Below are positions 14,501-17,500 of a stretch of 64,000 bases of DNA, piece after piece; the first letter of the stretch is position 1; every line of letters starts with the position of its first letter. The stretch is taken from contig NC_042998.1 in assembly GCF_006345805.1 (NCBI RefSeq), positions 194,804,001 through 194,868,000 of the forward strand, given 5' to 3'. Source of the stretch: Octopus sinensis (taxonomy: Eukaryota). Made by a program: the position numbers.

Positions 14501-17500
14501 ATTTTCTACATGGATTGATATGTGAATTACGTTGTGTAATCTATCAGTGTGGTAAATGTATTGGTCCAAAATGCTGGTCAGAAGTCTGAATATAAAGATG
14601 AAATTTAGTATTTTTTTTAATAGTATACTTTTATATAATGATAAACACTAATTAGCTACTTGATATTTGCAAGTAGCTAAGTGAATTTATATCATGGTTT
14701 ATGAATGATGAAATAATCTATTTTATAAATGTTTCACAATTTCAACTGACATGTATGGTTCTATGTACATTTATAGATTTATGGAATTGCCATCTAATAA
14801 AAGGGATTCAAATTGTTGCTTTGTATGGCAGTGTACTCATGTTGGACATTTAGTAGTATCATACAAACATGCTAGCAGCAATAAAATGCTGTTGACAAGA
14901 TTTTATTTCATTTGTAAAATGTCTGCTGAAGAAAATGAAAGGCTATTTGGGAAAATATTCAAGATCATCTTCAGTTTTGCAGGAATTTTACAAATTAGAC
15001 TAAGATCTAGTTTAAAGTTCTGATCAGGATGAGATATCCATATCCATTTAACAAGTTTTATTACACACATGTGAGTGAGAACACTTTGAGATATTTTTGG
15101 TATCTAACATATGTCAGATACTGCGAGCGCTGCTTCTGATTGGTCAATCCATGGTGATGACCCGAGGTCACGGTGACGGCACTACTTTTGTCATTCATAA
15201 GTTACAACTAAACTTCATCTGTGTTATGTATTTCTTGAACGTGAACTTGAATGTTAACAAAATGTTAAACAGTCATCAGTTATCAGTCATTTCACCTGAA
15301 AACTTAGCGCTATAAAGTCGGACTATCTTCCTGCGGCATGACATCTTTTACAGTTACACATTGTAACGTCACTGACGTGAAATCAAGCTGTATTCATGCG
15401 CGCTTCAACACGATGTGAAGAATTTAGTTATTGGGTTAATAAAATATGGTCATTCGTGTGTAATAAATAAAATACCAAACTCATTCCCTATGGATACCGT
15501 ATTTATTACAACTCGTGGCTTGTAAACGTATCTAACTCGCTTTCGCTCGTTAGATACGTTTACAAGCCACTCGTAATAAATACGGTATCCATAGGGAACT
15601 TGTTTGGTATTCTCTATGTATCTAACGCTACACAGCTGTTGAGTTGCTTGTTTGAATCAGGTCAAATGTGTAGCTGAACAGATTCATCTTAACAGTATTG
15701 CTACTCTCTGAACCTTCCTTCATCACTGTTAAATTAAGTCCATTTTCTTCTGGACTGTTAAAAACTAAACAATCCAATAACTTAATAATTTATTCAAAAA
15801 TATTAATATTATTAATAGGTAACATGTATACTAAGTTGTTTGTTCATCTGCCTAACAACTTCAGCTTTTCTTATTTGGAATTACTTAGTCTATCAACTAT
15901 CTGATCAAATGGAACTCTTTTGGTCATGGGGCTGTGGAAATTTGCTTTTGTTTTCTGTTGTCTTCCACAGATGGATACGATACTTAATGAAGATTTGATA
16001 TGTATTACCTTATTTAACTATTAAGTGTTGACTTAACTGAAAATAATAGAATATTTGCAGTAGATATAAACGCTTGTCTGGGAATTGGTTGTGTGGTTCA
16101 GTACTTTGTTCATTTAGTTATCTTACCTCATGAAATGAATTAGTAATATCATTCTTCAATTGGCTAATTTGTATTCAATTTTTAATAGTGTTCTTGAGTA
16201 TTTTTATAACTTGGTTGGTAATTAGTCTGAGAGAAAAGATTTTAAGACTAGCACCCTCCATTTGTGACTCAATGTGATATATTTGTACATAATCAGAAAA
16301 ATTAGGGAAAAAAGCAAATAATATGCTTTGAATGATGTTGCAAATAAATACAAGGAACTCAGCTGTTATAATTTATAGATGAATTGTTATTCATGTGAAT
16401 AATGTCTGCTTCTAATCTAGATAAGAACACTGACTATAGAGCTGAATGTCAAACACTGATATAACTTAAAGGAAAATATGCCAGTTATTAGGAGTGAGAG
16501 AGATAGGCAAAGATGTTTAAAAAGATCCTTGGCATGGAGATTTAAAAAGAGAATTGAAGAGCCTGTTGGTGCTGCTGAAGTTGTAGCATTTGACACAGTC
16601 TGTATTTGTTGAGCCATCTATTATCTGAAAAACTAAGTTTGGCTGTAAAATGCTTGCTTAGAAAAATTTGGAATGGCTTCTTAAAGTATGCTTGTATTTC
16701 CATTAGAATATCAAAACTATAGATTTCAGATTTGTACAAAATGGTAGATTTAATCCATGCCTTCACTAGCCTTGAATGCCTTTAGTTCTTGCAACCATTC
16801 AAGTCCTGTTTCTGGTTTGAGGATGAATTCCACTTTTCTCCCAGCAGACATGGACATCCTACAAAAGGCCCTGGGTGCTGCTCCTGCTGTTCTAAGTTGT
16901 AAAAAATGTAATTGAAACAGCTTTGAAGAATAAATTTGCAAATGTGTCTTCAACATAGAAATAGACTAGAGTGTGTAATGTCAAAACATATTTTCACTAA
17001 TGGAATAATTTGTTTCCCTAATTGGGGGTAACAATACTGTCTACAAAGAATTTTGAAAAGATAATTACTCAGCTTTAAGAGCTCTTGAAATATGGAGGAG
17101 AATGTAATGCCAGTAATAGAGAGGAAGGCTTAACCTTTCAAAAGCTTCCATTTTATCTTGAACAATCACAAATGAAATCACACAACTCATATATTTAAGA
17201 AAAAAATGTAATGGTTGGGTATTGCTGATGTCTCCAGGAAATGGTTTTCCCTTTTATTTTCACCTATCAACATTGTTATTGTACAGAAATAAGAATAATT
17301 CTGGTGGATTCCTAAAAGATGAAAGACAAAGTCAGTCTTAGTAGGATTTGAACATGGAATGAAAAGAGACATTACTAAATACTGCAAGGCATTTTATCAT
17401 TTGCTCTTTCGATGTCTGCTACAAACTTTCCTAATAAGAAGCTGCTTATAGCGTTGCAGAACAAGATTTGTATAATCTGATTAAGAGTTAATTAAAAGAA

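What the first reader, a model, noticed from the sequence alone, without database searches (positions are those of the whole stretch)
15100..15626. Crypton-like element whose flanking 9-mer recurs at the tip of its own long hairpin
Seen: gtatctaac flanks the element as a direct repeat (15100-15108 and 15618-15626). The same 9-mer (15528-15536) and its complement (15549-15557) close the loop of a long hairpin made of a perfect 22-bp inner stem (15515-15536/15549-15570), a perfect 26-bp outer stem (15484-15509/15573-15598) and a 10-bp basal stem, with (A/G)CTCG motifs at the bulges and loop. Established: Cryptons are tyrosine-recombinase transposons with short terminal direct repeats. Inference: the hairpin might specify or mimic the recombination or target site, conceptually like the hairpin- or RNA-guided targeting of IS200/IS605 or IS110. 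One copy cannot exclude coincidence.
Basis: partly seen in the sequence, partly recalled or inferred. Interest (0 to 1): 0.7.

Follow-up and report, generated by a model that had tools for sequence, protein, structure and literature searches.

The report
Young mobile element with box-studded hairpin
A very recent half-kilobase insertion in an invertebrate genome carries the same nine-letter word at both ends and at the tip of a long hairpin, so it probably lands where that word occurs; with only one copy to study, the enzyme that moves it is unknown.

Summary
GTATCTAAC lies at 15100-08, 15528-36 and 15618-26, and inverted at 15549-57. The hairpin 15471-15611 has three perfect stems of 10, 26 and 22 bp.

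It is not chance. The 9-mer is expected 0.34 times in the whole window.

New findings:
- The 527-bp interval has CpG o/e 1.27, against 0.05 and 0.08 in the flanks, so the insertion is very young.
- An 8/9 inverted copy lies four bases inside the left repeat. The basal stem holds variant copies, giving about seven RTAYCWAAC boxes.
- Three unoccupied sites share the 9-mer (one with a single mismatch) plus TACA downstream.

The repeats therefore look like a shared recognition or crossover core, not an ordinary target duplication.

The "Crypton" label is not supported. No recombinase is found, the repeat is 9 bp rather than 4-6 bp, and animal Cryptons are reported without terminal repeats. Helitron, Helentron, Replitron, SINE and MITE definitions are each unmet or untestable.

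No second copy could be reached, because no eukaryotic DNA collection was available. The covariation test stays undone, so the enzyme class (tyrosine recombinase, HUH or other) is inference.

The parts
15096..15103 (+). Host-side TTTGGTAT, overlapping the left 9-mer by GTAT. It is identical to the 3' basal arm of the hairpin (15603-15610).
   Evidence: (family D1). The 8-mer alone is not enriched in the window (8 seen, 5.4 expected), so only its position is notable.
15100..15108 (+). Left copy of the 9-bp direct repeat GTATCTAAC. It is either the shared core or the target-side copy.
15113..15121 (-). Inverted 8/9 copy of the box (reads GTCAGATAC on +), four bases inside the left repeat. Together they form a 22-nt near-palindrome (15100-15121).
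   Evidence: (I5). The palindrome is not thermodynamically notable (z -0.2 and -1.05).
15109..15470 (+). Body of the insertion. It is CpG-rich and shows no coding capacity. It contains an ATTGG (CCAAT-type) word near 15136-15148 and TATAAA at 15311-15316; these were read by eye and not tested.
   Evidence: CpG positions from 15124 onwards; the longest open frame is 78 codons, with no Pfam family at the curated cut-off..
15471..15611 (.). 141-nt imperfect hairpin. It has 58 perfect base pairs in three stems, two asymmetric internal loops and a 12-nt terminal loop.
15472..15480 (+). Basal variant box ATACCAAAC. It pairs with 15602-15610 (GTTTGGTAT on +).
15528..15557 (.). Hairpin tip: the exact 9-mer, the 12-nt loop TCGCTTTCGCTC, then the inverted exact 9-mer.
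15612..15617 (+). Six-base spacer (CTCTAT) between the foot of the hairpin and the right repeat.
15618..15626 (+). Right copy of the 9-bp direct repeat.
42216..42233 (+). Unoccupied look-alike site. It matches 17 of 18 bases of the occupied site with the insertion taken out (15097-15108 followed by 15627-15632). It lies just upstream of a spectrin exon.
32477..32491 (-). Unoccupied look-alike site: the exact 9-mer, two bases, then TACA. Its flanks match those of the occupied site at 15 of 24 positions (P = 0.0002).
36333..36347 (+). Unoccupied look-alike site with one mismatch (ATATCTAAC, two bases, TACA).

Best explanation
Bases 15109-15617 (or 15100-15626) are a very recent insertion of a short, non-coding, non-autonomous mobile element without terminal inverted repeats.

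The 9-bp direct repeat is not an ordinary staggered-cut duplication of an arbitrary target. It is one more copy of a 9-nt box (RTAYCWAAC) that the element carries about seven times:
- as inverted pairs at its left end, at the tip of its hairpin and at the foot of its hairpin;
- singly at its right end.

The most economical reading is conservative, orientation-specific integration at a genomic site that already holds the box. One enzyme, supplied in trans, recognises the same box on the element and on the target and exchanges strands within it. One copy of the box then ends up on each side.

The structured hairpin next to the right-hand joint would be the enzyme's assembly or recognition site. 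Its discrete asymmetric loops make the two strands distinguishable.

I commit to a tyrosine-recombinase-type reaction, as in fungal Cryptons and integron cassettes, as the single most likely enzyme class.

Shown: the anatomy, the non-randomness and the youth of the insertion. Inferred: mobility, the trans-acting enzyme, where strands are exchanged, and any role of the hairpin.

The general claim (the box is shared between element and target, and is not a random duplication) I put at about 0.6. The tyrosine-recombinase part I put at about 0.35.
For: 1. A discrete young insertion. There are 24 CpG in 527 bp (o/e 1.27, GC 38%). The neighbouring kilobases have 1 and 2 CpG (o/e 0.05 and 0.08) and the window o/e is 0.34. 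This is the most CpG-rich 527-bp stretch of the window, and the CpGs run from 15124 to 15583. The flanks are unique sequence within the window.

2. The repeat is tied to the element's own sequence.
- Exact copies in both orientations close the hairpin loop.
- An 8/9 inverted copy lies four bases from the left joint.
- Variant boxes form the basal stem. Six of the 12 window matches to RTAYCWAAC fall in these 527 bp.

3. Apart from the 9-mer, the pre-insertion site has no similarity to the element or the hairpin (z between -1.7 and 1.2 against 200 shuffles). The element therefore did not land in an old copy of itself.

4. There are no terminal inverted repeats (read; one search lists none joining the ends).

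5. The target looks specific and asymmetric. Both other exact 9-mers in the window share flanking bases with the occupied site: 8 of 12 within +/-6 for each. One is 17/18 overall, and the other matches 15/24 within +/-12 with P = 0.0002. The pattern 9-mer, two bases, TACA occurs 4 times at one mismatch or fewer, against 0.17 expected.

6. The hairpin's irregularities are confined to two internal loops, while all 58 stem pairs are perfect. This fits a built structure, not a decayed palindrome.

7. Precedents.
- Short direct repeats of Cryptons are read as microhomology with the target under a site-specific recombination model (PMC13465315 passages; PMC3212892 passages).
- Integron integrase, a tyrosine recombinase, recombines a folded 57-141-nt hairpin that carries RYYYAAC/GTTRRRY boxes and unpaired features which decide strand choice (PMC5027507 passages).
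- ATCTAAC within the 9-mer fits RYYYAAC. The basal boxes fit it with one mismatch each (my reading).
Against: - Only one copy was seen, so mobility, boundaries and box constancy are not demonstrated.
- No recombinase gene is present in the element or the window.
- The repeat is 9 bp, whereas Cryptons have 4-6 bp. In animal Cryptons, 50 compared copies showed no terminal repeats.
- The spacers between the inverted boxes are 4, 12 and 121 bases. None is the 6-8 bp typical of tyrosine-recombinase core sites (recalled, not checked).
- In integron attC the conserved boxes lie at the foot of the hairpin and the crossover is inside it. Here the exact boxes are at the tip and the joint is six bases beyond the foot.
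- A subterminal hairpin plus short direct terminal repeats fits HUH elements equally well.
- The enrichment of look-alike sites is weaker against an empirical null. Of 1200 random 15-mers from the window, 2.2% have two or more other exact copies and 6.1% have three or more at one mismatch or fewer.
- The TACA part of the pattern was defined after seeing the sites.
- Target specificity would not by itself explain why such sites are frequent.
Confidence: 0.35

Rival explanations
1. A non-autonomous rolling-circle or single-strand (HUH endonuclease) element related in principle to Helitrons, Helentrons or Replitrons. The box would be the nick site used for initiation at the left end and termination at the right end. 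The hairpin next to the right end would be the terminator or recognition structure on one DNA strand.
For: - A hairpin a few bases from one end is the Helitron hallmark: a 16-20-nt palindrome about 11 bp from the 3' end (PMC4067079 passage). Here the foot of the hairpin is 6 bases from the right repeat and 15 from its end.
- Helentron derivatives have palindromic subterminal repeats near both ends and prefer T-rich targets. Here the left end and the hairpin tip are palindromes built from the same box, and the left flank is T-rich.
- The strand-asymmetric loops and four same-strand RCTCG words suit single-strand recognition.
Against: - No parse gives 5'-TC ... CTRR-3' between host A and T. The closest parse has C, not T, as the 3' host base, and it needs the 9-bp repeat to be coincidence.
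- The hairpin has 58 bp of stem, against 8-10 bp in Helitrons and 11 bp in Replitron-1.
- Replitrons were found only in the green lineage, stramenopiles, cryptophytes and haptophytes, not in animals (section 8).
- The targets of known HUH transposons are 2-5 bases long, whereas the look-alike sites here share 13-18 bases.
- No Rep or helicase gene is present in the window.
Confidence: 0.2
2. An ordinary insertion with a true 9-bp target-site duplication. The most likely form is a LINE-mobilised retroposon whose 3' hairpin and short tail are the reverse transcriptase's recognition site. The 9-mer inside the hairpin would be coincidence or a by-product of target preference.
For: - A perfect 9-bp duplication without terminal inverted repeats is what target-primed reverse transcription gives (established knowledge).
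- A degraded LINE reverse transcriptase lies in the same window.
- CR1-type LINEs end in a hairpin plus a short microsatellite thought to be recognised by the reverse transcriptase (PMC8665684 passages). Here the bases after the hairpin read ATTCTCTATG, close to the bird octamer with two extra bases.
- By prior frequency this is the commonest kind of insertion in animal genomes.
Against: - Three coincidences would be needed. First, an exact 9-mer recurrence (about 0.003), placed exactly at the hairpin tip. Second, an 8/9 inverted copy four bases from the joint. Third, the host TTTGGTAT repeated in the basal arm.
- There is no tRNA-, 5S- or 7SL-like head (0 tRNAs; 0 Rfam families at gathering score).
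- There is no A-tail or tandem tail.
- There is no similarity to the LINE or to anything else in the window.
- The hairpin is several times longer than LINE 3' stem-loops (recalled).
Confidence: 0.15
3. The hairpin, as folded DNA or RNA, base-pairs with the target and so specifies it, in the manner of the guide sequences of IS200/IS605 or the bridge RNA of IS110.
For: - The hairpin contains both strands of both halves of the 13-base target word: TTTGGTAT at the foot and GTATCTAAC at the tip.
- The right repeat can in principle pair with 15549-15557 (I12).
Against: - The candidate guide bases are all locked in perfect stems, not in loops.
- The two halves lie 58 bp apart on the helix, so they cannot read a contiguous 13-base target together.
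- No Rfam family matches: 11 sub-threshold matches in the region scanned (six of them hairpin-generic matches over the hairpin itself), all far below gathering score.
- No IS110-type or TnpA-type protein is present, and both families are prokaryotic.
- Protein recognition of a repeated box explains the same facts more simply.
Confidence: 0.05
4. Not a transposon. It would be a one-off capture of foreign or episomal DNA, for example the hairpin-bearing end of a small linear DNA virus or plasmid, or a templated repair insertion joined through microhomology.
For: - The composition differs from the surroundings (GC 38% against 30-31%, CpG o/e 1.27).
- No second copy is present in 64 kb.
- A 141-nt terminal-type hairpin next to promoter-like words recalls parvovirus-type genome ends, and GCTC-type words recall their Rep-binding elements (both recalled, not tested).
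Against: - End-joining capture does not make a perfect 9-bp duplication or place copies of it in the insert.
- There is no coding similarity to anything, under the standard or the invertebrate mitochondrial code.
- Nothing was found in bacterial or archaeal genomes.
Confidence: 0.1

Closest known systems
Crypton DNA transposons (tyrosine recombinase)
   Same: No terminal inverted repeats. Short direct repeats at the ends are read as sequence shared with the target, not as a true duplication. Non-autonomous derivatives exist, and Cryptons are present in a mollusc, Lottia (PMC3212892 passages; PMC13465315 passages).
   Different: Their repeats are 4-6 bp and were described in fungi and oomycetes. 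Animal Cryptons are reported without any terminal repeats. Neither paper mentions a hairpin or a palindrome. No recombinase partner was found here.
Integron gene cassettes with their attC site (IntI tyrosine recombinase)
   Same: A unit of a few hundred bases ending in an imperfect hairpin of 57-141 nt. Discrete unpaired features make the strands distinguishable. RYYYAAC/GTTRRRY boxes are shared with the partner site (PMC5027507 passages). The hairpin here is 141 nt, ATCTAAC fits RYYYAAC, and the basal boxes fit with one mismatch each.
   Different: Integrons are bacterial, whereas this is a eukaryotic chromosome. In attC the conserved boxes lie at the foot and the crossover is inside them; here the exact boxes are at the tip and the joint is six bases beyond the foot. 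No integrase, attI or cassette array is present. No match was found in 185,579 bacterial and archaeal species genomes.
Replitrons (Y1 Rep HUH transposons)
   Same: Short direct repeats at or near both termini, a right-end hairpin and orientation-specific insertion. Short non-autonomous partners exist (PMC10288648 abstract and section 9).
   Different: Replitron-1 has a 6-bp repeat and an 11-bp palindrome, a 2-base target, and fuzzy right ends with variable duplications. Replitrons are not known from animals (section 8).
Helitrons and Helentron-derived HINE/DINE-1 elements
   Same: A subterminal hairpin close to the 3' end. The subterminal repeats of HINEs are themselves palindromic. Targets are T-rich, and the elements are abundant in invertebrates (PMC4067079 passages).
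   Different: There is no 5'-TC/CTRR-3' and no A|T or T|T insertion without duplication. The palindromes of Helitrons and Helentrons are 5-20 nt, not 141 nt. No direct repeats are described for them.
IS200/IS605 and IS110
   Same: In concept only: structured nucleic acid next to the end of the element that is related in sequence to the target.
   Different: Both are prokaryotic and have defined transposases (Y1 TnpA, DEDD) that are absent here. Their guides lie in unpaired positions, whereas here the matching bases lie in perfect stems. These features are recalled; I read no paper on them.
CR1-type LINE 3' ends and the SINEs they mobilise
   Same: A hairpin followed by a short tail at the 3' end, with a target duplication (PMC8665684 passages).
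   Different: The hairpin here is far longer. There is no microsatellite repeat and no polymerase III head. The element shows no similarity to the LINE in the window.

Membership tests
Crypton | Encodes a tyrosine recombinase, or shares both ends with an element that does | not testable with these tools
   No recombinase domain was found in 18 window reading frames or in 6 element reading frames. A trans partner can be sought only in the source genome, which was not available.
Crypton | Short (4-6 bp) terminal direct repeats and no terminal inverted repeats | tested here: inconclusive
   There are no inverted termini and a direct repeat is present, but it is 9 bp long. Animal Cryptons are reported without repeats.
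Helitron | 5'-TC and 3'-CTRR ends, inserted between host A and T without duplication | tested here: not met
   The best parse (TC at 15104, CTAA ending at 15625) has C as the 3' host base and leaves a 9-bp repeat unexplained.
Helitron | A 16-20-nt palindrome about 11 bp from the 3' end | tested here: inconclusive
   The position fits: 6 bases from the right repeat, or 15 from its end. The size does not: 141 nt with 58 bp of stem.
Helentron / HINE | 12-15-bp subterminal inverted repeats 2-4 nt from the 5' end and 38-60 bp from the 3' end, a short 3' stem-loop, and insertion in TT | tested here: not met
   Palindromic boxes lie at the left end and 61-98 bp from the right end (15528-15557 against 15626). 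There is no separate short 3' stem-loop, and the element is bounded by a 9-bp direct repeat.
Replitron | Short direct terminal repeats plus a right-end hairpin | tested here: met
   This feature alone does not define the group.
Replitron | Mobilised by a Y1 Rep transposase; known host range | not testable with these tools
   No Rep is present in the window. The group is not reported from animals.
Integron cassette / attC | A folded 57-141-nt site with RYYYAAC and GTTRRRY at its foot, extrahelical bases, and an integrase with attI nearby | tested here: not met
   The length and the unpaired features fit. However, the foot boxes have one mismatch each, the exact boxes are at the tip, and the context is a eukaryotic gene region.
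SINE / LINE-dependent retroposon | A polymerase III head (tRNA, 5S or 7SL) and a tail shared with a partner LINE or an A-rich tail | tested here: not met
   0 tRNAs. 0 Rfam families at gathering score. No tail repeat. No match to the window's LINE. A partner LINE elsewhere in the genome is untested.
MITE (DDE transposon derivative) | Terminal inverted repeats next to the target duplication | tested here: not met
   The ends share only ATA. One search lists no inverted repeat that joins the two ends.
IS200/IS605 or IS110-like guided elements | A Y1 TnpA or DEDD transposase, and guide bases in unpaired positions that covary with the target | not testable with these tools
   No such protein is present. 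Covariation needs more copies. The matching bases are paired in stems.

The most novel reading that the evidence does not exclude
An animal genome harbours an active family of small elements whose landing site is written in the element's own DNA. A folded hairpin, attC-like or bridge-like, presents copies of the integration core, so changing the boxes would retarget the element. That would be a eukaryotic counterpart of integron cassettes or of guided IS110/IS200-type insertion.
Probability: 0.07. Interest if true: 0.9.

Novelty: new variant of a known kind. Interest (0 to 1): 0.5.

Why it matters
If the box really is both the element's recognition motif and its landing site, this is a sequence-specific mobile element that is active now in an animal genome. 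Its architecture is a 9-bp core, three inverted box pairs and a 141-nt hairpin with built-in asymmetry. I did not find that architecture described for Cryptons, Helitrons, Helentrons or Replitrons in the papers I could read.

Site-specific integration without double-strand breaks is sought after as a genome-engineering principle, and eukaryotic examples are few.

The question is also cheap to settle. A search of the source genome for the 0.5-kb sequence would give the copy number, the empty sites and the autonomous partner, and would allow the covariation test.

If the copies instead turn out to have unrelated flanks, this is an ordinary young retroposon with a curious coincidence.

Tried and rejected
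1. Other copies in the window. blastn with word size 7 found only self matches; the best non-self hit was 30 bits. A covariance model of the hairpin found only its own two strands. A scan for inverted box pairs found 20 pairs at one mismatch or fewer, 6 of them in the element and none of the others in a hairpin.

2. Copies elsewhere.
- The reading frame through the hairpin (15471-15674) had no candidate in the 5.8-billion-protein set.
- The same frame gave 1 hit among 1.84 billion representatives. That hit is a low-complexity repeat protein and I reject it.
- An exact pattern of the hairpin tip gave 0 loci in bacterial and archaeal genomes.
- Peptide-pattern scanning gave 186 pattern matches, and 0 were confirmed.

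3. Known RNA families. There were 0 at gathering score in the window. Only 11 sub-threshold matches were found in 14600-16200 (six over the hairpin are hairpin-generic; the rest lie in the flanks), and none is a ribozyme.

4. Coding capacity. There was no Pfam family at the curated cut-off in 6 standard-code and 4 mitochondrial-code frames. Two weak hits were rejected: DUF4734 at 14.7 bits and Dam at 13.5 bits. A mitochondrial coding fragment is therefore not supported.

5. Self-nesting. The pre-insertion site is not a decayed copy of the element.

6. The look-alike sites as parts of a longer repeat. There is no similarity beyond about 18 bases. All 12 flank comparisons gave z below 1.5.

7. 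The left-end palindrome as a stable hairpin. It is not distinguishable from shuffles.

8. Bacterial promoter and terminator scan. It found nothing and is not relevant to a eukaryote.

9. Naming the organism.
- One spectrin exon gave Mytilus edulis SPTA at 63% as the best named hit.
- The LINE fragment gave named hits at 65-75% identity (mostly 69-75%) in sea slugs, crustaceans, lancelets, fishes and a coral.
- Exons were searched singly. I did not build or search a joined spliced model.

10. A full-text search for the 9-mer together with 'transpos' listed 9 papers, judged from the listing alone to be primer or bacterial coincidences.

11. Supplements of the Crypton and Replitron papers, which hold element termini, were not opened. 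They might list animal families with repeats or hairpins.
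Full report
**What is there**

The window is eukaryotic DNA with 33.5% G+C and strong CpG depletion (o/e 0.34). Alpha-spectrin coding exons run on the + strand from 29539 onwards (tblastn with the named Mytilus edulis SPTA record). A single exon gives that protein as the best named relative, at 63% identity. I searched exons singly and did not join them into a spliced model. The finding lies 14.4 kb upstream of the first detectable coding exon. 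It may therefore be in a 5' intron or upstream of the gene, and I cannot say which.

**Check of the observation**

All coordinates are correct. GTATCTAAC is at 15100-15108, 15528-15536 and 15618-15626, and its complement is at 15549-15557.

The hairpin 15471-15611 consists of:
- perfect stems of 10, 26 and 22 bp;
- two internal loops (TCA/CTT and AACTC/TC);
- a 12-nt terminal loop.

As single-stranded DNA it folds at -58.9 kcal/mol, against -10.5 +/- 2.7 for shuffles; 0 of 200 shuffles do as well. RCTCG occurs four times on the + strand of the hairpin, because the asymmetric loops break the palindrome, and once on the - strand at 15124.

The 9-mer occurs 6 times in the window against 0.34 expected (100 shuffles, largest 2). 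Four of the six lie within 527 bp.

**New facts about the element**

First, the interval 15100-15626 holds 24 CpG (o/e 1.27, GC 38%). The kilobase to its left holds 1 CpG and the kilobase to its right holds 2 (o/e 0.05 and 0.08). It is the most CpG-rich 527-bp stretch of the window. CpGs start at 15124 and end at 15583, plus one formed at the right joint. In a region where CpG has almost vanished, this marks a discrete and very recent insertion whose limits agree with the direct repeat. The flanks are unique within the window.

Second, the 9-mer is one of a set:
- An inverted 8/9 copy (GTCAGATAC) lies four bases inside the left repeat. Together they form a 22-nt near-palindrome (I5).
- The basal stem is made of ATACCAAAC and GTTTGGTAT, which are variants of the same word.
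- The degenerate box RTAYCWAAC has 12 matches in the window (5.9 expected), and 6 of them are in these 527 bp. That box was defined after seeing the copies.
- The host bases just left of the insertion, TTTGGTAT (15096-15103), overlap the left repeat and are identical to the 3' basal arm at 15603-15610.

Third, the ends share no inverted repeat. The element has no reading frame longer than 78 codons and no Pfam family at the curated cut-off, under the standard or the invertebrate mitochondrial code. It has no tRNA and no Rfam family; only sub-threshold matches appear, those over the hairpin being generic to hairpins.

**The target**

With the insertion taken out, the site has no similarity to the element or the hairpin beyond the 9-mer (z from -1.7 to 1.2). 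The element did not land in an old copy of itself.

Both other exact 9-mers in the window resemble the occupied site beyond the nine bases:
- 42216-42233 matches 17 of 18 positions. In controls, 0 of 300 shuffled 18-mers had a match at one mismatch or fewer, while 5.3% of 300 real window 18-mers had one.
- 32477-32491 on the - strand matches 15 of 24 flanking positions (P = 0.0002 from 200,000 random placements). The first site scores only 9 of 24 on that wider measure (P = 0.15).
- Within +/-6 bases each site matches 8 of 12.
- A third site at 36333-36347 differs by one base.

The pattern (9-mer, two bases, TACA) occurs 4 times at one mismatch or fewer, against 0.17 expected; 0 of 100 shuffles reach 4.

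Three cautions apply:
- The TACA part was defined after seeing the sites.
- Against an empirical null drawn from the window itself, 2.2% of 1200 random 15-mers have two or more other exact copies and 6.1% have three or more approximate ones. Those are mostly in repeats and simple sequence.
- The look-alike sites share nothing beyond about 18 bases, so they are not parts of a longer repeat.

Why such a short word should recur is unexplained. Virgin targets, sites left after precise excision, and remnants left by recombination between the two repeats would all look like this.

**Search for relatives**

Nothing was found.
- Within the window: no hit by blastn, by a covariance model of the hairpin or by a scan for inverted box pairs.
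- Outside the window, using the reading frame through the hairpin: no candidate among 5.8 billion proteins, and one spurious low-complexity hit among 1.84 billion representatives.
- In bacterial and archaeal genomes: none by exact pattern and none by peptide patterns, where 186 pattern matches gave 0 confirmed.

The test that matters, copies with their flanks, could not be run.

**How it most likely works**

An arbitrary 9-bp target duplication would recur in a 0.5-kb element with probability of about 0.003 (derived). Here it recurs exactly at the hairpin tip in both orientations and again, inverted, next to the left joint. The adjoining host bases also recur in the hairpin foot. Coincidence is therefore not credible, and the box must be common to element and target for a mechanistic reason.

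The simplest reason is an enzyme that recognises the same word on both partners and exchanges strands within it. This is what conservative site-specific recombinases do. I take a tyrosine-recombinase-type reaction as the most likely class (about 0.35), with the general shared-core claim at about 0.6.

Precedents read in papers:
- Crypton repeats are interpreted as microhomology with the target (passages of PMC13465315 and PMC3212892).
- Integron attC sites are folded hairpins of 57-141 nt. They carry RYYYAAC/GTTRRRY boxes and unpaired features that decide which strand recombines (passages of PMC5027507).

The hairpin here is 141 nt. ATCTAAC fits RYYYAAC, and the foot boxes fit with one mismatch each. 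All irregularities lie in discrete loops.

These are resemblances in working principle, not membership. The system is bacterial, the exact boxes lie at the tip and not the foot, and no integrase is present.

**Rivals**

An HUH, single-strand or rolling-circle element explains the subterminal hairpin and the direct terminal repeats about as well. Replitrons have both (section 9 of PMC10288648), and Helitrons have the 3' hairpin (passages of PMC4067079). However, the Helitron ends and the A|T target are not met, Replitrons are unknown in animals (section 8), and known HUH targets are much shorter. I give this 0.2.

An ordinary duplication by a LINE has the highest prior. It also fits the hairpin-plus-tail design of CR1-type 3' ends (passages of PMC8665684). 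It has to accept the coincidences above, and there is no polymerase III head or tail. I give it 0.15.

It is not excluded, but the matching bases are all paired in stems and lie 58 bp apart.

A one-off capture of foreign hairpin-ended DNA gets 0.1. It is limited by the perfect duplication and by the boxes in the insert. Viral origin could not be checked.

'Crypton-like' rests only on short direct repeats and the absence of inverted ends.
- In the Crypton survey those repeats are 4-6 bp and belong to fungal and oomycete families.
- For animal Cryptons the authors state that no terminal repeats were found, including in 50 compared copies of one insect family.
- Neither Crypton paper I searched contains the words hairpin or palindrome.
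- I did not open their supplementary files.

**Verdict**

This is a real, very young, box-studded insertion of unknown class. I did not find its architecture in searches or in the papers named above. The claim of novelty is limited because Repbase, Dfam and the source genome could not be consulted. Interest is 0.5: a specialist would want the genome-wide copies before believing more, and that test is simple.

Noticed in passing
window 51738-52822: A 1085-bp element bounded by TTAA with perfect 16-nt inverted ends that include the TTAA (TTAACCCTTTCGTTAC and its complement). It is CpG-rich (o/e about 1.2-1.35) like the finding. It looks like a young piggyBac-type non-autonomous element, and it lies between two spectrin exons.
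   Followed up: partly
window 29539-63687, + strand: Alpha-spectrin coding exons, including 29539-29796, 32561-32713, 42018-42134, 42251-42424, 50205-50396 and 53293-53439. Identity to Mytilus edulis SPTA is 47-96% per exon. The finding lies 14.4 kb upstream of the first of them.
   Followed up: partly
window 2713-4618, - strand: A degraded non-LTR retrotransposon. The reverse-transcriptase frames are broken into at least five pieces. RVT_1 scores 28.6 and 28.2 bits, just under the cut-off of 29.6. Relatives at up to 80% identity (named ones up to 75%) occur in many marine animals.
   Followed up: partly
window 23285-23539 and 21310-21659: Two fold-back, MITE-like inverted repeats, with arms of 105 nt at 94% and 75 nt at 81% identity. 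Neither is related to the finding.
   Followed up: no
window 13600-13748, with partial copies at 4715-4770, 10576-10622, 11414-11458, 13233-13327, 22605-22656, 24520-24567, 44554-44616 and 53848-53897: A dispersed short repeat, probably the genome's common SINE. Its longer copies give the recurring pseudo-peptide in the frames at 10538-10873, 13285-13689 and 57539-57889.
   Followed up: no
window 42219-42233: Here the look-alike of the target word lies 18 bases upstream of a spectrin exon, where the CTAAC in it would serve as the intron's branch point. The 9-mer as a whole resembles a branch-point word, which might contribute to its frequency in this gene.
   Followed up: no
window 35896-35909: TTTTGGTATTTAAC matches 13 of 14 bases of the word at the left joint (15095-15108). 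It has the same overlapping arrangement of the two box variants and lies inside a small palindrome.
   Followed up: no
window 15511-15573: The inner stem-loop of the hairpin is bracketed by the same five bases, ACTCG, at 15511 and 15569. Without it, the outer stem would close on a 5-nt loop. The inner part could therefore be a secondary palindromic insertion into a simpler hairpin.
   Followed up: no
window 1600-2600 and 4977-5160: Long tracts of simple sequence (TCTA-type and TA repeats). They dominate the lists of open frames and inverted repeats.
   Followed up: no
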